Source: Promethearchaeota archaeon
Lineage (GTDB): Archaea > Asgardarchaeota > Hermodarchaeia > Hermodarchaeales > Hermodarchaeaceae
Reading direction: 5' to 3'
NCBI GenBank assembly: GCA_048938295.1
Contig: JBHLMI010000038.1
Span: 1-21,114 of the forward strand
DNA length: 21,114 bases
Position numbers and translations under genes: made by a program. Position 1 is the stretch's first letter. Each line of letters starts with the position of its first letter. A model generated the notes under the pieces. It was given only the letters and a program-made list of their open reading frames with translations. It was not told the DNA's origin and made no database searches. This document shows positions 3,037-20,335 of the stretch, one piece after another.

Positions 3037-3963
3037 ATGAGTGCAAAACAAGAATCTCAGGCAACTGCTGCTGTTCCCCATACGAGCAAGGGTCGTCCCG
3101 TCCCTAAAGCGAAGCTCAATGAGGTTGCCCACCTCGTGTCCCTGCTCAAAAAGTATGACTATATCTCTTTGCTTCGCACCGAACAGATTGGGTCAAAACA
3201 ATTCCAAACCATCAAAAAGGTTCTCCGGGATACCGCACGTATCCACATGTCACGGAACACGCTCATGATCCGAGCCCTCGAGCAAGCGGCAGCCGAGAAA
3301 AAGAATCTTGACAAGCTCATCCCCTATGTTGAAGGGTCCAGTGCGTTTGCCTTCACTAATATTAGTCCCTTTGAACTCAACGATCTACTCCAACAAAACA
3401 GAGCCAAAGCCCCAGCCAAAGTAGGAACCGTTTCCCCCATCGACATCACAATCCATGCTGGGAACACCGGCTTCCCACCCGGACCCCTGATCTCTGAACT
3501 CGGTCAAGTGGGACTCAAAACCCGTATTCAAAGCGGATCCATCTGGATTACCCAAGACCATGTCATCGTGAAAACCGGTGAAACCGTTTCTCGTGAACAA
3601 GCCCTCGTCATGTCCCGACTAGGTATGGAACCGTATGAAATTGTACTCCAACTGGTCGTTGCCTACGATAATGGTCTCATCCTCTCTGCCGATGTCTTCA
3701 AGATTTCAAGAGGCGACGTGGTCGATCAACTAACAATTGCAGGACAAGAGGGATTAGCGCTTGCCCTGACGGCGAATTATATTAGCGAAGAGACTTTACC
3801 ATTGCTGTTGCAAAAAGCGTTCCAAGAAAGTCGAAGCCTTTCTCTCTTTGCTGTAATCCTCACTGATGAAACGACAGAACAAATCCTAGCTCAAACAGAG
3901 CAAAGTGCCACAGCACTTGCGCAGGCAGTCCGGAATAAGAACCCGGATGCCCTGCTGAACTAA
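3037..3963 (+). CDS. rpl10: 50S ribosomal protein uL10 (P0), lacking the acidic C-terminal tail
   Basis: MSRNTLMIRAL, APAKVG..SPIDI, GNTGFPPGPLISEL and LSRLGMEP motifs. SD GGTGA upstream. Lies between rpl1 and rpl12. Confidence 0.96.
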   Translation: MSAKQESQATAAVPHTSKGRPVPKAKLNEVAHLVSLLKKYDYISLLRTEQIGSKQFQTIKKVLRDTARIHMSRNTLMIRALEQAAAEKKNLDKLIPYVEGSSAFAFTNISPFELNDLLQQNRAKAPAKVGTVSPIDITIHAGNTGFPPGPLISELGQVGLKTRIQSGSIWITQDHVIVKTGETVSREQALVMSRLGMEPYEIVLQLVVAYDNGLILSADVFKISRGDVVDQLTIAGQEGLALALTANYISEETLPLLLQKAFQESRSLSLFAVILTDETTEQILAQTEQSATALAQAVRNKNPDALLN

Positions 3964-14752: not shown

Positions 14753-14963
14753 CGGATAAAACGCATATGCACGAACTGTACACTGAAAGAACCTATTATT
14801 GGCAATCCGATGAATCTCTACTCATTCTGCCCATACTAAGAGTAGCACTTTCTAAGCCAGCTTATGCCGTTGTAGAAATTAAGGCTGTTCAAAATCGTTG
14901 AACACCCTATATTTTCGTGTTCTAAAGTTTAGATTAATGACGCAGATGATAGAAGGGAAATGT

Positions 14964-16865
14964 ATGTCCCGTATTCGAACCCGATTTGGGAGGCGCTGGT
15001 TAAAACAAATCCGAATCCCATCGTTCAAAGTCCTGCTTTTATTATCAACAATTGTTTGCGGATTCGTCTTGACTGGTCTATATTTTAGTTATCCAAGTAA
15101 TCTCCCCGTTCAATTACAACGTTTTCAATCACATACTGAGTTAATTTGGTATGTGCGAAACCATCATCCACCCCAAGGCTATGGATGGGGGTTATGGTTG
15201 GAAGATGGCATCACATTGTCCTCAGGTGATTCTACTCGAGGAGTGGCAGGAATATCCGGGTATTCAACTACAAACGTCCAAGTCGAAGGCGTTGATGAGC
15301 CCGACACGGTCAAAACCGATGGAACCTATATTTTCACAATTACAGACGAAAAGGTTGCAGTTATTGAAGCATATCCTGTGGCCACAGCACACATCAGCAA
15401 TTGGATTTACCCAGAAGGAACACCACTTGCTTTGTTCTTATGGAACGGCTCAAAACTTATCGTGATTAGTCAAGTCACTGACCAAGAAAACACGTGGAAC
15501 TCCTACGAGATTGCACTTCAAGTCTTTGATGTCTCTCAACCGACTTCCATTACCTTACTTCAACGCATCAGCCTGGGGAATTATTATGTCAGTGCTCGGC
15601 TCATTGATGATTATCTATATCTAATCGTCCAAGACTGGATCACCGAAGAGAATGGAATTGTTGAGCTCCCATCAATAACCATAGGAAGCACCACACACCC
15701 CATCCCAGCAGAAACCATCTATTACGATCCTCAATCCTATGACTATGGGTTCTGCTACAATCAAATCCTCGCCCTTGATATCAGCAATCCCGACACTCCT
15801 CCAGACATTGAAACATTCCTTGGTGGAACAGGTACCTGCACAATCTATGCATCTCTTAGCAACCTGTACCTGGCCATATCACATTTTGACTTCCGTGGTG
15901 ACACCTTTTCCGGACATTCTACAGCCATCCATCGTTTTGTAATCTTTGAGGGGCAGATAGCATACGAAGCCAGTGGAGAAGTACCTGGCTTTCTCATTAA
16001 CCAGTTTGCCCTCGATGAAAATGCAGACTATCTGCGCGTCGCTACAACCAGTCAGATAGTAAACTATACAGCTAATCCGAACTTGTTTGTAAGCTCTTGG
16101 ACAGAAGTCAGTAACGTCTATGTCCTAAATCAACAACTCGATACCGTTGGACGACTCGAAGGTTTAGCCCTAGGCGAAAGCATCTACTCAGTTCGATTCC
16201 TCGAAAGCGTATGTTATCTCGTGACCTTCTGGAAAACCGACCCCCTCTTTGTCATTGACATGACTAATCCCACCGCACCACACCTTCAAGGAGAACTGAT
16301 CATTCCAGGATACTCAGATTACCTGCACCCCCTAGGAGATAACCAGCTAGTAGGCATCGGAAAAGACGTCAACGCTTCAGATGGAGAAAACTGGTGGTGG
16401 TATCAGGGGCTCAAACTCAGCCTCTTCAACGCCACAGACCCCTACACCCCAACAGAAAGCGCCAAACTAATTCTTGGCGTACGAGGCACCGAATCACCTG
16501 TCTTACACGACCATCACGCCATCTTGTACCATCCCCACCAGCAGCTCCTCGTCATTCCAGTGCTACTTGCCGAATATACAGACAACAGCACCCATAACCC
16601 ATATGATCACGGTGACTACGTCTGGCAGGGCGTCTACATCTTCTACCTCGACCCCGCCACCGCAACCATTACTATTCAGCACCGAATTACCCATCTCGCC
16701 AACCCCGACGTCCTCCAAGACAATTACTACGAATGGCGATCACACTTCATCACCCGCTCCCTCTACATCAACAACATCCTCTACACCCTCTCACAAGCTA
16801 CACTCCGGTTCCACAACCTCACCGACTTCACACCCCTGGGCGAAATCCAGCTCAATGCAACATAG
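14964..16865 (+). CDS. Membrane-anchored/secreted beta-propeller domain protein (Beta_propel family)
   Basis: Basic N-region plus TM, then YSTTNVQVEGVDEPD.VKTDG, PGFLINQFALDE, GESIYSVRF, TDPLFVID, IPGYSDYLHP and GLKLSLF. ATG 14964 is preferred over TTG 14898. Confidence 0.88.
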   Translation: MSRIRTRFGRRWLKQIRIPSFKVLLLLSTIVCGFVLTGLYFSYPSNLPVQLQRFQSHTELIWYVRNHHPPQGYGWGLWLEDGITLSSGDSTRGVAGISGYSTTNVQVEGVDEPDTVKTDGTYIFTITDEKVAVIEAYPVATAHISNWIYPEGTPLALFLWNGSKLIVISQVTDQENTWNSYEIALQVFDVSQPTSITLLQRISLGNYYVSARLIDDYLYLIVQDWITEENGIVELPSITIGSTTHPIPAETIYYDPQSYDYGFCYNQILALDISNPDTPPDIETFLGGTGTCTIYASLSNLYLAISHFDFRGDTFSGHSTAIHRFVIFEGQIAYEASGEVPGFLINQFALDENADYLRVATTSQIVNYTANPNLFVSSWTEVSNVYVLNQQLDTVGRLEGLALGESIYSVRFLESVCYLVTFWKTDPLFVIDMTNPTAPHLQGELIIPGYSDYLHPLGDNQLVGIGKDVNASDGENWWWYQGLKLSLFNATDPYTPTESAKLILGVRGTESPVLHDHHAILYHPHQQLLVIPVLLAEYTDNSTHNPYDHGDYVWQGVYIFYLDPATATITIQHRITHLANPDVLQDNYYEWRSHFITRSLYINNILYTLSQATLRFHNLTDFTPLGEIQLNAT

Positions 16866-16877
16866 ATGTCGCATCCA

Positions 16878-18734
16878 TTATCGAACCAACTGATACCGCC
16901 CCTTTGCGACGCGCACAAAAACTCCTTGTTTCACCAGCTTTGCCATCCGATCCGCCAGATACGCCGGATACCGATTCGCCACCAACTCCTGCAACACCCC
17001 ATCCCCCTTCAACTCACCTAAGGCTATCTCCCCCTTCCCAGCACTCGCCAATTCAACAATCCGATCACAAATCACCGACGCACTTTGCAACTTCTTAGCA
17101 AACCCTGGATCCAACAACCGTTCCGACCGCCCCTGATCGTGCCGGTGAAGCCGCAACCATTCCTCAAATCCAATACCCCCCTTACTAAACTCCTGATAGA
17201 CCTGTAACTGTTTGACCAAGAAATCACACTGCTCATACCGCGGCGCTAGCTTTCGGTCAAATCTCACCACAACTCCTTCCGACACCACACCGACTCCCCC
17301 ACCCACCGCCGCCGCCAACGCAAGAACCCACCTAGCATCCATCCACTGCCGACGCCCCTGCAAATACCCCCGCACCGTCGTCTCCGGCATCCCCGCCGCC
17401 CGCGCCGCCGCTGCCGCGGTCCCAAATTGATCCAACAACCGCCTCCGCAGCCTACTCCACCATTCGTCTTCCATCACCACCCGATCCCCATCATCCCAGC
17501 CATGCTTCCAAATCCGCGCCAAAAACGCCTCCCCCGCCTCCGTCGTCTGATAAAACGTCGTAAACTTCCGCTTCTCCACCCGCCGAATCCACCCTAATTT
17601 CCGCAACCGCTCCACCACCCGAAACACAAAATCTTCACGAAGCATAAACCGGTGTGCCACATCCGCCACCGAACCAACACCCCGCAGACCGATTAGGACT
17701 AAGAAATCTAAATCAAACCCATCCAACCCCCACTCCCCCCACTTCGCATCACACTCAAGCTGGAACACCAACCGCTCCGCCCGCTCCGGATGCGTAAACC
17801 CAATATGCTCCGCATACCACCCAAACAGCGGCCGATACACATCCAAAATAAACCACGACCGACACGGCTTCACCCCACCCACCGACTTCATGAAAACAGC
17901 AACTTCCTTTGAAGGCAACGTCGCCTCCATCAACTCCACAATCAACCCCCGCATCTGCTCCAAAATCGTCGCACCCCCCGACGTAAACCGAATACAATGC
18001 GCTCCCACATGCCCATCATCATCCCCAAAAGTCCGTACGATTTCACACTTTAGCTCTAAAGGAAGTTGAAAAAATGAACTGGGAAGAGACCCATTTAATT
18101 CATCAAACTTTGCATCTGGATACCAATGATGGAGAAGATAACCGAGCCATTTTGTGAAAGCAACGTATGAACGGGATTTTCCTCGTCTGTCACTATATTT
18201 CCTAGTACACCACGAAATATCTCCAAATACTTCTCTCAAAGTGCTATGGAACTGATTAAGTAAAACTGCATTTCCGTTTGTGTAGTGTGGAGTCTTAGTT
18301 GTTCCATATTCCTCTGTTAGGGTACCGTCTCCTATTAGATGAACCACCAATCGAACAAGATGGTTATCTTCTATAATTGGTATTCGTGGATTTCGTAGCA
18401 GTCCTGACCTTCCGTACCCTTTAATTGCGCGAACGTTTCTTTCAACATCTGAAAGAATATCTGAATTCTTATGAAACTCCTTGTAAGCGCCAATAAGCTT
18501 CAGTAAAACGCTAAGTTCAATGAAAACGGGATCAGCTAAATCTTCGCGATAGTTCACAGCGTATCGGGCCAAAAGGTCAATTTTTGTGTCAAGCTTCTCA
18601 GCGAGAGTTTTCAAAGAGATTTGATCAAGTATTTTTGAAAAGAAGTTTTTGCCAAAATCTGGGTCCAGTTGAACATAGATGTCCTGGGTGTGAAAATCAG
18701 TAAGGTGGAAGTGACGTAGGTTTTGCCTTCCCAT
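16878..18734 (-). CDS. Free-standing two-motif LAGLIDADG-like protein with multiple HTH/winged-helix modules
   Basis: Motif 1 LVVHLIGDG (D136), motif 2 IVRTFGDDDG (D240), and intein-endonuclease-like blocks TSGG..ILEQM and IGFTHPERAERL. HTH-like segments at aa ~20-80, 345-405, 418-478 and 556-616. No splicing residues. Confidence 0.75.
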   Translation of the reverse strand: MGRQNLRHFHLTDFHTQDIYVQLDPDFGKNFFSKILDQISLKTLAEKLDTKIDLLARYAVNYREDLADPVFIELSVLLKLIGAYKEFHKNSDILSDVERNVRAIKGYGRSGLLRNPRIPIIEDNHLVRLVVHLIGDGTLTEEYGTTKTPHYTNGNAVLLNQFHSTLREVFGDISWCTRKYSDRRGKSRSYVAFTKWLGYLLHHWYPDAKFDELNGSLPSSFFQLPLELKCEIVRTFGDDDGHVGAHCIRFTSGGATILEQMRGLIVELMEATLPSKEVAVFMKSVGGVKPCRSWFILDVYRPLFGWYAEHIGFTHPERAERLVFQLECDAKWGEWGLDGFDLDFLVLIGLRGVGSVADVAHRFMLREDFVFRVVERLRKLGWIRRVEKRKFTTFYQTTEAGEAFLARIWKHGWDDGDRVVMEDEWWSRLRRRLLDQFGTAAAAARAAGMPETTVRGYLQGRRQWMDARWVLALAAAVGGGVGVVSEGVVVRFDRKLAPRYEQCDFLVKQLQVYQEFSKGGIGFEEWLRLHRHDQGRSERLLDPGFAKKLQSASVICDRIVELASAGKGEIALGELKGDGVLQELVANRYPAYLADRMAKLVKQGVFVRVAKGRYQLVR

Positions 18735-18763
18735 AGCACATCAATAGGTGCATAAAAAGGAGG

Positions 18764-18771
18764 TACTTAAA
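18764..18771 (-). promoter_or_regulatory. Putative TATA box of the LAGLIDADG-like gene
   Basis: TTTAAGTA on the minus strand, 30 nt upstream of the ATG at 18734. Confidence 0.45.
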
Positions 18772-18788
18772 CCCCACAATTCTTTAAA

Positions 18789-18821
18789 CATCTATCTATA
18801 TAGATGAGGAAAATCTATATA
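18789..18821. repeat. Palindrome plus short direct repeat in the rps19/LAGLIDADG spacer
   Basis: Perfect 12-bp palindrome ATCTATATAGAT (18794-18805), CATCTA-n6-TAGATG (18789-18806), and ATCTATATA repeated at 18794 and 18813. Confidence 0.6.
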
Positions 18822-19226
18822 TTACTTTAGAGGTACGTACTGACTTCCCCTTGTAGCACCAATGCCGGGGTTGCCGTGGCGGACGGCTTTGTTGGTGGGG
18901 GCGTATTCGCCGAGGTAGTGGCCGATGTGTTCGACTTGGATGCTGAGGGGGAGGAATTCTTTGCCGTTGTGGATGCCGAGGGTGAGGCCGACCATTTCGG
19001 GGAGGATGATCATGTCGCGGTTGTGGGTGCGGATCATGGGGGGGTTGCCTTTGCCCATGTGTTGGCGGGTTTTGCGGAGGCGTTCGAGGAGTTTCTTTTG
19101 GCGGGGTGGGAGGCCGCGTTTGAGGCTGCGGCGTTGCCGGGAGGGGAGCAGGTTGATGAACTGGTCCATGGGCATGCGTTGCAGCTCGTCGAGTTCGTAT
19201 CCGCGGTAGGTGAATTTTTTGACCAT
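18822..19226 (-). CDS. rps19: 30S ribosomal protein uS19 (archaeal type)
   Basis: [51 protein letters not shown] and [27 protein letters not shown], and CTTAAAAG TATA-like at 19285-19278. Confidence 0.98.
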
Positions 19227-19375
19227 GATCGGTGACCTCGTGGAGGGTTGAGGGGTGGTGGTGGGTGCGATTGCTGCCTTTTAAGCGTTGCTGCTTACCG
19301 TGTCCCTTTTTTGGGGGAGGCAAGCATAAAGCATAAAGGGTGCAGGAGGGAAGGGGCACAGGTCGGGGGGATCCA

Positions 19376-20335
19376 ATGACGACAGACACACGGCGGACGG
19401 TGCTAGTAACGGGCGCGGCAGGCTTCGTGGGCAGCCATTTGGTGGATGCCCTGCTCCGTCAGCGGTGTCGTGTGCGGGGCTTTGATGATCTCTCCACGGG
19501 CACCCTGGCTAACTTAACCTATGCCTTAGACCATGCCGCGTTTTCCTTTGTTGAGGGGGATATCCGTGACCTGAAAGCCGTAGGGGAGATCTGTGATACC
19601 TGTGATGTCGTGGTGCATTTGGCCGCCGTCACGAAGGTCGACGAATCCCTCCGTGAACCGGAAAAATACATGGAGATCAACGTCACAGGCACCCAGAACG
19701 TCCTGCAAGGCGCTGTACAGGCGAATGTGAGTCGAGTTGTCTTTGCCTCCAGTGCCGCGGTGTATGGGACACCGGAAACTGTGCCCACCCCCGAAGCGGC
19801 ATCAACCCACCCTCTCTCACCATATGGCGCCAGTAAATTGCAGGCAGAACAGCTCTGCCAACAAGCCGCTCAAGATCATGGCATCGAAGTCCCCCAATTA
19901 CGGATATTCAACGTCTTTGGTTCTCGCCAGCCCTCGGATAACGAAGCGGGGGTGATTAGCATCTTCATCGATCGTGCCCAGCAAGGATTGCCACTGATAA
20001 TTTTCGGTGACGGGTATCAAACCCGCGACTTCATTTACATCAGAGACGTTACTGAAGCCATACTGCAGGCCGCTACGCTGGAGACTGTCCCCTCCGTGCC
20101 AATCAATATAGGGACCGGAATTCCGATCTCGGTGCGTGAACTCGCCGAAGTCATACAAGAGCTCATCCCCTCCTGTTCCACCGAACTTCTCTTTGAACCC
20201 CCCAGGCCCGGAGACATCTATCATAGTGTAGCGCAAATTACCCGCATGCAGCAACTCCTCCAATTTACACCTACCTATTCCTTATTTGATGGATTACGCG
20301 ATTATTGTATGCCCGAATCTGGGTCAACAGAATAG
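19376..20335 (+). CDS. NAD-dependent nucleotide-sugar epimerase/dehydratase (extended SDR)
   Basis: VLVTGAAGFVGS (GxxGxxG), HLAA, FASSAAVYG, YGASK (YxxxK), FNVFG and RDFIYI. ATG 19376 is preferred over GTG 19340. Confidence 0.94.
   Translation: MTTDTRRTVLVTGAAGFVGSHLVDALLRQRCRVRGFDDLSTGTLANLTYALDHAAFSFVEGDIRDLKAVGEICDTCDVVVHLAAVTKVDESLREPEKYMEINVTGTQNVLQGAVQANVSRVVFASSAAVYGTPETVPTPEAASTHPLSPYGASKLQAEQLCQQAAQDHGIEVPQLRIFNVFGSRQPSDNEAGVISIFIDRAQQGLPLIIFGDGYQTRDFIYIRDVTEAILQAATLETVPSVPINIGTGIPISVRELAEVIQELIPSCSTELLFEPPRPGDIYHSVAQITRMQQLLQFTPTYSLFDGLRDYCMPESGSTE

What the first reader, a model, noticed from the sequence alone, without database searches (positions are those of the whole stretch)
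16878..18734. Stand-alone LAGLIDADG-like protein carrying about four additional DNA-binding modules
Seen: two LAGLIDADG-type helices with acidic residues retained (HLIGDG D136; TFGDDDG D240). An N-terminal HTH-like unit (YVQLDPDF...SLKTLAEKL...IELSVLLKL) is echoed internally (VVMEDEW...GTAAAAARAAGMPETTVRGYLQG...MDARWVLAL). A MarR/TrmB-like winged helix (GSVADVAHRF...VVERLRKLGWIRR...YQTTEAG) and a C-terminal winged helix (LADRMAKLVKQGVFVRVAKGRYQL) are also present. There is no N-terminal Cys/Ser, no C-terminal His-Asn, no host gene or intron around it, and it has its own TATA-like box. Established: LAGLIDADG domains normally ride in inteins or introns and can be domesticated (WhiA, HO). Inference: either a free-standing homing element with extended target recognition, or a domesticated multi-HTH regulator or chromosome-organising nuclease of an architecture I do not recognise.
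Basis: partly seen in the sequence, partly recalled or inferred. Interest (0 to 1): 0.75.

Follow-up and report, generated by a model that had tools for sequence, protein, structure and literature searches.

The report
Stand-alone LAGLIDADG nuclease-like gene beside uS19
An Asgard-archaeal (Thorarchaeia-type) gene encodes an intein-style LAGLIDADG endonuclease core that stands alone, keeps both catalytic acidic residues and carries four extra helix-turn-helix modules. It has been inherited vertically at the uS19|uL22 junction of the ribosomal-protein operon, so it looks host-retained rather than freshly mobile.

Summary
ORF 16878-18734 (-) encodes a 618-aa protein whose residues 100-335 fold as a double LAGLIDADG core (AF2 pLDDT 94; Z 16.6 to the TliVMA intein endonuclease, 15.9 to PI-PfuI). 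D136 and D240 are invariant in 22 orthologues.

The core is flanked by four modules:
- an N-terminal Cro-like HTH;
- a MarR/ArsR-type winged helix;
- a second copy of the N-terminal HTH;
- a C-terminal winged helix, which is the weakest call.

There is no Hint/splicing domain.

The core belongs to a wider set of about 380-aa free-standing archaeal HTH-LAGLIDADG-wHTH proteins. Their profile also matches the endonuclease modules inside Asgard MCM and other inteins.

The gene is single-copy and under purifying selection (dN/dS 0.1-0.3). It always lies directly downstream of uS19, ancestrally between uS19 and uL22, even in orthologues only 33-36% identical. Two same-genus genomes have lost it and retain remnants. 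No clean empty site was seen.

My best reading is a long-resident, probably still catalytic, host-retained site-specific endonuclease or DNA binder. A WhiA-like dead regulator and an actively homing element remain rivals.

A conserved, unexplained G-rich strand-composition domain starts at the second LAGLIDADG motif. The scan had already found this family on other DNA.

The parts
16878..18734 (-). Whole ORF, 618 aa plus stop (P0001): free-standing LAGLIDADG protein
   Evidence: 22 orthologues; single copy in its own genome
18435..18713 (-). N-terminal Cro/XRE-like HTH module (aa 8-100). It is the fastest-evolving part.
   Evidence: AF2 helices 25-99. Relatives hit YdjS/YdaS, P22_Cro, HTH_3 and HTH_26. 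hhalign to the internal HTH gives probability 82-87%.
17730..18434 (-). [quoted passage not shown]
   Evidence: DSSP. VIA Z 16.6/15.9/14.9/14.3 to TliVMA, PI-PfuI, PI-PkoII and I-DmoI. Family profile against PDB: PI-PfuI E 5e-12. 40 of 61 relatives hit PF14528.
18324..18365 (-). LAGLIDADG helix 1 (aa 124-137, ...VVHLIGDG) with D136
   Evidence: G135, D136 and G137 are invariant
18012..18059 (-). LAGLIDADG helix 2 (aa 226-241, ...VRTFGDDDG) with D240. The following GHV matches PI-PfuI LFDAEGHV. The composition break and a recombination boundary both fall here.
   Evidence: (alignment to 1dq3)
17496..17726 (-). MarR/ArsR/TrmB-type winged helix (aa 337-413)
   Evidence: Z about 11 to MarR, AspA and Sso10a-2. 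Profile E about 1e-6 to ZitR/AdcR. HTH_5 in 25 of 61 relatives.
17265..17483 (-). Internal XRE-type HTH (aa 418-490), a duplicate of the N-terminal HTH unit
   Evidence: HTH_31 in 20 of 22. hhalign E 3.8e-6 over 71 columns to aa 20-101.
17211..17249 (-). Invariant motif LAPRYEQCDFLxK (aa 496-508) in a low-confidence linker; function unknown
   Evidence: no PDB or Pfam match
16881..17072 (-). C-terminal winged-helix-like module (aa 555-618)
   Evidence: AF2 topology H-H-H-beta-beta at pLDDT about 80-87. Weak AbiEi_4 hits in 5 of 22 orthologues and in P0030.
18735..18821 (-). Spacer between uS19 and the gene. It holds a hairpin, ATATAGAT..ATCTATAT (18798-18820), just after the uS19 stop, and a conserved TATA-like box, TTTAAGTA (18764-18771).
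18822..19226 (-). uS19 (rps19), the invariable upstream neighbour on the same strand
   Evidence: PF00203 E 1e-29. Adjacent in all orthologous loci, including the 33-36%-identical ones.
16420..18040 (-). Strand-composition domain: gene-strand GC skew +0.4 to +0.6. It starts at LAGLIDADG motif 2 and runs about 450 nt past the stop codon into the convergent beta-propeller gene.

Best explanation
This is a free-standing member of the archaeal intein-type (PF14528, PI-PfuI/TliVMA-like) LAGLIDADG endonucleases. It has lost, or never had, a splicing domain. It has resided for a long time at the uS19|uL22 junction of the ribosomal-protein operon in one Thorarchaeia-type family.

Shown:
- a monomeric double-LAGLIDADG saddle with both metal-binding acidic residues;
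- flanking modules in this order: Cro-like HTH, winged helix, a duplicated HTH, and a probable terminal winged helix;
- single copy, syntenic and vertically inherited under purifying selection;
- occasional loss.

Inferred:
- the saddle still binds a long asymmetric DNA site and probably still cleaves or nicks it in a Mg-dependent way;
- the HTH and winged-helix modules act like intein 'accessory domains', lengthening the recognised site and/or binding near the gene's own promoter;
- the gene is kept by selection on the host (domesticated, or at least tolerated and useful) rather than by continuing invasion.

What the host uses it for is not known.
For: Fold and family.

Catalytic residues: D136 and D240 are invariant in 22 orthologues. 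D136, G137 and D239 are invariant and position 240 is D/E in 61 relatives of 20-57% identity. The second motif aligns with PI-PfuI ...FDAEGHV. Inteins without these Asp residues are inactive and WhiA lost them (PMC8966425, PMC3384342).

The same HTH+LAGLIDADG module inside inteins: profile A2 matches positions 9-354 inside 1300-1650-aa ORFs. MCM inteins carry HTH_26 + LAGLIDADG_3 within Intein_splicing. The genome's own MCM intein carries LAGLIDADG_3 + HTH_3.

Vertical residence:
- one copy in G000;
- full-length orthologues only in family f1 and always epimerase / uS19 / this gene;
- identity tracks the neighbours: G003 80% against uS19 92% and epimerase 64%; G010 61% against 87% and 63%; G016 57% against 77% and 53%;
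- in G006, G010, G014 and G016 the order is uS19, this gene, YdjM (convergent), Trm112-like, uL22, uS3;
- orthologues of 33-36% identity are again just downstream of uS19;
- dN/dS is 0.1-0.3 in every module.
Against: No activity, target or expression data exist. The one RNA run held only a relative's uS19.

P0001 itself misses every curated family threshold.

The conserved basic residues of LAGLIDADG active sites could not be mapped.

The gene is dispensable. G001 (about 90% nucleotide identity to G000 in the flanks) and G012 have lost it and keep only C- or N-terminal remnants.

A 1.2-kb tract covering uS19 plus codons 1-235 is 85-97% identical between G000 and G003, against a background of about 71%. 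That is what co-conversion around a homing cut would also give.

Third-position usage in the 3' two-thirds avoids the C-ending codons of highly expressed genes. That argues for low expression.
Confidence: 0.5

Rival explanations
1. WhiA-like outcome: a domesticated, catalytically silent transcription factor. Its HTH and winged-helix modules bind promoters, perhaps its own or that of the ribosomal-protein operon. The LAGLIDADG core then serves only as a scaffold or protein-interaction surface.
For: The architecture parallels WhiA (LAGLIDADG core plus C-terminal HTH): Z 15.2 with 231 residues aligned to WhiA in an RNAP open complex, 8dy9_I. There are four DNA-binding modules, conserved operon position, its own conserved TATA-like box and a palindrome upstream. 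Selection is purifying.
Against: WhiA lost both the acidic and the basic active-site residues (PMC3384342). Here the acidic pair and its neighbours are invariant over a family diverged to about 20% identity. There is no hit to the WhiA Pfam models.
Confidence: 0.2
2. A still-selfish free-standing homing endonuclease gene parked between two universally conserved genes. It persists by recurrent homing or gene conversion among related populations. Its target would lie in or next to uS19/uL22.
For: The catalytic residues are intact. The site lies between conserved essential genes. The about 380-aa relatives likewise sit beside AspRS/GatCAB or AlaX. Degraded copies occur in G001 and G012, and there is a split paralogue in G006. 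There is a 1.2-kb high-identity tract centred on the 5' end of the gene between G000 and G003. Rearrangement breakpoints cluster at the 3' end of the gene.
Against: No clean empty site was found among 14 informative family genomes: 12 have the gene and 2 have remnants. There is one copy per genome. Divergence parallels the host genes, and the locus is conserved down to 33% identity. dN/dS is 0.1-0.3 in all modules. Long-term maintenance without turnover is not what the homing cycle predicts.
Confidence: 0.2
3. An RNA-binding, maturase-like or other non-DNA role connected with translation, suggested by the ribosomal-protein and tRNA-synthetase neighbourhoods.
For: LAGLIDADG maturases exist (bI3 maturase 2ab5, Z 10.7). 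The family's contexts are translation genes.
Against: No intron is nearby. The HTH and winged-helix modules are of DNA-binding types. The catalytic Asp residues are retained, although some maturases keep them too.
Confidence: 0.04

Closest known systems
Archaeal intein-encoded LAGLIDADG endonucleases with accessory domains (PI-PfuI 1dq3, PI-PkoII/TkoII 2cw7, TliVMA 7qsu/7qss; Pfam PF14528)
   Same: The double LAGLIDADG core matches (Z 15-17). The D...D/E-G-H-V active-site motifs match. HTH-like accessory domains flank the core (PMC8966425). The family profile matches these proteins at E 5e-12 to 5e-8, and it matches Asgard MCM-intein modules.
   Different: There is no Hint/splicing domain and no extein host. 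The gene is free-standing in an intergenic operon junction. It has an extra roughly 200-aa C-terminal extension (duplicated HTH, invariant APRYEQCDFL linker, winged helix). It is vertically inherited and single-copy.
WhiA/DUF199 (bacterial sporulation/cell-division regulator)
   Same: It is a domesticated monomeric LAGLIDADG core followed by a C-terminal HTH, and it is a conserved chromosomal gene. Structural Z is 15.2-15.3.
   Different: WhiA lost the acidic and basic catalytic residues, whereas this family keeps the acidic pair invariant. There is no match to the WhiA Pfam models. This protein is archaeal, has an N-terminal HTH and has three C-terminal modules instead of one.
HO endonuclease of yeasts
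   Same: It is a free-standing, host-retained, intein-derived LAGLIDADG nuclease. It has an added C-terminal DNA-binding domain and an intact active site.
   Different: HO keeps Hint-domain remnants and uses zinc fingers. No comparable switching cassette system is seen here. No sequence relationship beyond the fold was tested.
I-DmoI / I-Tsp061I (archaeal intron-encoded monomeric LAGLIDADG enzymes)
   Same: The monomeric two-domain core matches (Z about 14; profile E 3e-4).
   Different: Those are about 190-200 aa, lie inside rRNA introns and have no HTH modules.
Unnamed archaeal ~380-aa HTH-LAGLIDADG-wHTH proteins
   Same: They are homologous over residues 7 to about 400 (phmmer E 1e-28 to 1e-7). 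They share the motifs and are free-standing beside translation genes.
   Different: They lack residues about 416-618. They have other genomic sites (AspRS/GatCAB, AlaX). No curated family or name exists for them.

Membership tests
LAGLIDADG endonuclease superfamily (PF14528 LAGLIDADG_3 type) | [quoted passage not shown] | tested here: met
   AF2 pLDDT 94.4 with the expected element order. Z 16.6, rmsd 2.6 A over 179 aa to 7qsu; Z 15.9 to 1dq3; Z 14.3 to I-DmoI. Foldseek E 5e-9 to 2cw7.
LAGLIDADG endonuclease superfamily (PF14528 LAGLIDADG_3 type) | Sequence-profile membership | tested here: inconclusive
   P0001 alone gives no PF14528 hit at E<=1, and 1 of 22 orthologues hits at E 0.045. However, 40 of 61 homologues found by phmmer hit PF14528, best E 2.7e-16. 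The family profile hits PI-PfuI at 5e-12.
LAGLIDADG endonuclease superfamily (PF14528 LAGLIDADG_3 type) | Acidic metal-binding residue at the C-terminal end of each LAGLIDADG helix | tested here: met
   D136 and D240 are invariant in 22 orthologues. D136 and D239 are invariant and position 240 is D/E in 61 relatives. Position 240 aligns with the PI-PfuI FDAEG motif.
LAGLIDADG endonuclease superfamily (PF14528 LAGLIDADG_3 type) | Conserved basic residues in the beta1-beta2 loops (I-DmoI K42/43, K120/130) | tested here: inconclusive
   A K/R is always present at 147 or 148, and R249 is invariant. No residue-level structural superposition was available.
LAGLIDADG endonuclease superfamily (PF14528 LAGLIDADG_3 type) | Site-specific DNA cleavage | not testable with these tools
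   Needs biochemistry.
Intein | Hint splicing blocks, N-terminal Cys/Ser, C-terminal His-Asn, in frame within a host protein | tested here: not met
   The protein starts MGRQ and ends YQLVR. There is no Intein_splicing hit. The ORF is bounded by intergenic DNA.
Mobile homing endonuclease gene | Presence/absence polymorphism with uninvaded (clean) target sites | tested here: not met
   Of 14 informative genomes of the family, 12 carry the gene. The other 2 (G001, G012) carry remnants: tblastn E 1e-9 for the C-terminus and 3e-6 for the N-terminus.
Mobile homing endonuclease gene | Horizontal spread / phylogeny discordant with the host | tested here: inconclusive
   Overall identity tracks the neighbours and the genus assignment. 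However, uS19 plus codons 1-235 are 85-97% identical between G000 and G003 against a background of about 71%.
WhiA/DUF199 | LAGLIDADG core lacking catalytic residues, plus WhiA_N and HTH_WhiA domains | tested here: not met
   The acidic residues are retained. There are no hits to the WhiA Pfam models. Only fold-level similarity was found.
Anti-phage defence protein (PADLOC) | Match to a defence-system model | tested here: not met
   0 families at E<=0.01.

The most novel reading that the evidence does not exclude
The protein is an active, host-retained endonuclease or nickase that acts repeatedly at its own locus, in an HO-like way. Breaks at the uS19|uL22 junction would then account for three observations:
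- the exchange of the uS19 + 5' module between lineages;
- the clustering of rearrangement breakpoints at the 3' end of the gene;
- through one-sided resection or R-loops, the conserved strand-asymmetric G/T-rich domain of about 1.6 kb that starts exactly at the second LAGLIDADG motif and ignores gene boundaries.
Probability: 0.1. Interest if true: 0.85.

Novelty: new variant of a known kind. Interest (0 to 1): 0.55.

Why it matters
Domesticated or long-resident LAGLIDADG proteins are few: WhiA, HO and organellar maturases. None is described from archaea outside introns and inteins.

This family offers a natural, monomeric LAGLIDADG scaffold with four modular HTH or winged-helix add-ons, which may interest meganuclease engineers. 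It also offers a case where the step from intein module to free-standing chromosomal gene can be followed within one phylum.

Its fixed place inside the most conserved operon of prokaryotes, in the archaeal lineage closest to eukaryotes, raises a question. It might regulate, mark or break that locus. The associated composition domain is an unexplained mutational or selective signature worth explaining.

Tried and rejected
- Direct Pfam, NCBIfam and PDB sequence searches with P0001 gave only sub-threshold HTH hits.
- A profile of the C-terminal 200 aa against PDB gave nothing meaningful. Atlas feature search gave only generic HTH_3 clusters at score <=0.82.
- PADLOC gave no defence family.
- Literature searches for a described archaeal free-standing HTH-LAGLIDADG family found none.
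- Expression: the only RNA run (X20) held contigs of a relative's uS19 only, and nothing on this gene. This is not evidence either way.
- An antisense gene as the cause of the G/T third positions: there is no long ORF on the plus strand.
- Canonical G-quadruplex motifs: 0 in G000 and few in the orthologues.
- A repeated binding-site array inside the skewed region: the enriched k-mers occur once per gene and reflect conserved peptides.
- Simple 'foreign origin' of the 3' part: synonymous sites between orthologues are at about chance identity given the composition, yet the bias is kept in all f1 orthologues. A continuing force is therefore needed.
- Dependence of the skew on the gene's presence: the last 150 codons of the beta-propeller gene remain C3-rich in G012, where the gene is deleted. 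This test was not informative.
- Link between skew and LAGLIDADG genes in general: the MCM intein locus shows little skew. The C47 intein locus shows a skew of opposite sign ending near its second motif. The pattern is not consistent.
Full report
**1. What is there.** The minus-strand ORF 16878-18734 encodes 618 aa. Direct scans give only sub-threshold HTH hits (HTH_31 at 439-478, TrmB/MarR at 348-400) and no LAGLIDADG hit.

A word-indexed search found 22 full-length orthologues (598-624 aa, 50-80% identity). They come from Promethearchaeota/Thorarchaeota-labelled metagenome assemblies, and all are annotated as hypothetical. That includes D136 and D238-D240.

**2. The wider family and the fold.** An exhaustive phmmer search gave 223 hits. 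Most are proteins of about 370-400 aa that cover query residues 7 to about 330-400.

A 61-sequence alignment (A2) keeps D136, G137 and D239 invariant. Its second-motif consensus is FxDDEGxV.
- 40 of the 61 sequences reach Pfam LAGLIDADG_3 (best E 2.7e-16), and 25 reach HTH_5 at the C-terminus.
- The A2 profile hits PI-PfuI (5e-12), PI-PkoII (2e-10), TliVMA (5e-8) and I-DmoI (3e-4).
- It aligns the query's FGDDDGHV with PI-PfuI LFDAEGHV.

With A2 as the alignment, AF2 models residues 1-420 at pLDDT 94.4 and pTM 0.91. [quoted passage not shown]

Structure comparison gives:

| Match | Z |
|---|---|
| TliVMA endonuclease (rmsd 2.6 A, 179 aa) | 16.6 |
| PI-PfuI | 15.9 |
| WhiA | 15.3 |
| PI-PkoII | 14.9 |
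| I-DmoI | 14.3 |
| MarR/AspA/Sso10a, residues 335-416 only | about 11 |

**3. The added modules.**
- The N-terminal unit (aa 8-100) is Cro/XRE-like in relatives (YdaS, P22_Cro, HTH_3 and HTH_26 hits).
- It is homologous to the internal HTH at 418-490: hhalign probability 82-87%, E 1e-5 and 4e-6, 42-71 columns. The 'echo' is real.
- The internal HTH matches HTH_31 in 20 of 22 orthologues.
- Residues 496-508 (LAPRYEQCDFLxK) are invariant but unmodelled.
- The last 65 residues form a winged-helix-like unit in the full-length model (pLDDT 79.6 overall). AbiEi_4 hits there are weak.
- No Hint domain or splicing residues are present.

**4. Relation to inteins.** The A2 profile was searched in 151 genomes of the phylum. 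It mostly hits inside ORFs of 900-2700 aa, and several matches cover profile positions 9-354.

Two such ORFs are MCM proteins whose inteins carry HTH_26 plus LAGLIDADG_3 inside Intein_splicing. The window genome's own MCM intein has LAGLIDADG_3 followed by HTH_3.

HTH-like accessory domains are also described for the TliVMA and PI-TkoII inteins. An intein endonuclease lacking the active-site Asp residues is inactive (PMC8966425).

So the free-standing proteins share their module plan with intein endonucleases of the same organisms. The 618-aa form adds a further 200 aa.

**5. Genomic behaviour.** The gene is single-copy in its own 2.5-Mb, 91.6%-complete genome. Full-length orthologues occur only in family f1 (two genera) among 41 relatives. 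One more was found in f17 in the wider search.

In every locus the order is epimerase (divergent), then uS19, then this gene. Identity tracks the neighbours:

| Genome | This gene | uS19 | Epimerase |
|---|---|---|---|
| G003 | 80% | 92% | 64% |
| G010 | 61% | 87% | 63% |
| G016 | 57% | 77% | 53% |

In G006, G010, G014 and G016 the genes downstream are a convergent YdjM/DUF457, a Trm112-like gene, uL22 and uS3. The ancestral site is therefore the uS19|uL22 junction of the ribosomal-protein operon. Orthologues of only 33-36% identity (P0030, G041) again lie just downstream of uS19.

dN/dS is 0.1-0.3 in each module.

In the G000, G003, G001 and G012 group the downstream side has been replaced by a beta-propeller gene and a glycan cluster.
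- G001 is 89-90% identical to G000 in the flanks. It has uS19 abutting the beta-propeller gene. A 49-aa C-terminal remnant of this gene lies on the far side of the propeller (E 1e-9).
- G012 keeps a 32-aa N-terminal remnant next to uS19 (E 3e-6).

These are losses, not uninvaded sites. In the remaining 'negative' genomes the locus is not assembled.

**6. Mosaicism.** Between G000 and G003, codons 1-235 are 88% identical (87% at synonymous third positions). Codons 241-618 are 75% identical. For other pairs the N part is the less conserved one (about 45% against 69%).

A sliding comparison shows 85-97% nucleotide identity over 18026-19224, which covers uS19, the spacer and the 5' third of the gene. 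Identity falls to 60-65% at the epimerase and to 69-83% in the rest of the gene. The background between these genomes is about 71%.

A tract of about 1.2 kb has therefore been exchanged. One of its ends lies at the second LAGLIDADG motif.

**7. Composition anomaly (unexplained).** At codon about 235-240 the third positions switch. Before it they are G 0.13-0.15, C 0.13-0.30. After it they are G 0.5-0.7, C 0.02-0.12, A 0.05-0.17. At four-fold sites the counts are G 133, T 28, A 15, C 9.

All seven f1 orthologues show the switch. The 36%-identical orthologue does not.

This ORF is the most extreme of 2110 ORFs in the genome. Highly expressed genes such as uS19 and FKBP have the opposite bias, with C3 about 0.6.

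The skew (+0.4 to +0.6 on the gene strand) is not confined to the ORF. It runs about 450 nt into the convergent beta-propeller gene in G000, and through the convergent YdjM gene in G010 and G016.

I found no antisense ORF, G4 motif or repeated k-mer array.

Earlier scan notes reported the same break on this stretch and in another genome.

**8. Reading.** Three findings together argue that the protein has been kept by selection and that its active site matters:
- the acidic pair is invariant over a family diverged to about 20% identity;
- the active-site motif is PI-PfuI-like;
- residence at one locus is long, single-copy and under purifying selection.

That separates it from WhiA, which lost these residues (PMC3384342).

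Other findings keep an active homing or gene-conversion role alive:
- the gene is dispensable in two genomes;
- the uS19 + 5' tract has been exchanged between lineages;
- rearrangement breakpoints cluster at the gene;
- the site lies between universally conserved genes.

I therefore rank the readings as follows:
- host-retained, probably catalytic site-specific endonuclease or binder: 0.5;
- dead regulator: 0.2;
- active selfish element: 0.2;
- RNA-related role: 0.04.

No biochemical or expression evidence is available.

Noticed in passing
window 16420-18040 (minus strand); same in L023 and L024: A domain of about 1.6 kb with gene-strand GC skew +0.4 to +0.6 and almost only G/T at third codon positions. 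It starts at the second LAGLIDADG motif and continues past the stop codon into whichever convergent gene follows (beta-propeller here, YdjM in G010 and G016). It is conserved in all f1 orthologues and absent from the 36%-identical orthologue.
   Followed up: partly
G001:C85:~2830-2930 (L016 1404-1672); G012:C13:~3670-3780 (L027): Remnants of this gene in two same-genus genomes. In G001 a C-terminal piece lies between FKBP and the beta-propeller gene. In G012 an N-terminal piece lies between uS19 and the beta-propeller gene. The propeller gene therefore sits where most of the gene used to be. In G000 and G003 it lies downstream of an intact copy.
   Followed up: yes
window 14898-16865: The beta-propeller (PF09826) gene is only 75% identical in nucleotides between G000 and G001, although the flanks are about 90% identical. 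It occupies different positions relative to the LAGLIDADG gene in close relatives. This suggests an exchanged or diversifying surface-protein allele at the edge of a glycosylation cluster.
   Followed up: partly
window 18822-19226 and 19340-20335: uS19 is detached from the rest of the S10-type operon. Upstream is a divergent NAD-epimerase in all f1 genomes. In G000, uL22 and uS3 are on another contig (C15) that begins inside the Trm112-like gene, with about 1.4 kb between Trm112 and uL22.
   Followed up: partly
window 18798-18820: A perfect 8-bp inverted repeat, ATATAGAT(N7)ATCTATAT, lies immediately after the uS19 stop codon. It is shared by G000, G003 and G014 only. It could be a terminator hairpin or an operator.
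   Followed up: no
G000:C47:29800-31300; C35:36-1973; C38:68796-70034; C31:1818-2921; C18:6745-7218: Other local strand-composition islands in the same genome. One, of opposite sign, ends near the second LAGLIDADG motif of an intein endonuclease (C47). Five ordinary genes (MCM C-extein, Ras-like GTPase, Fer4 protein, metallophosphatase, DinB) have 100-codon stretches with at least 85% G/T third positions.
   Followed up: partly
L030/L031 (P0040), L032-L034 (P0042): The about 380-aa HTH-LAGLIDADG-wHTH relatives are also free-standing and sit in translation-gene contexts. One overlaps the start of an AspRS gene next to GatC/GatA. Another lies 13 nt upstream of an AlaX-like gene.
   Followed up: no
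G006:C3:76325-77472; G008:C168:1-1595: In G006 a second family member is split into two ORFs (243 + 176 aa), probably a frameshifted paralogue. In G008 the orthologue appears as two overlapping pieces with in-frame TGA stops, which is either an assembly problem or a pseudogene.
   Followed up: no
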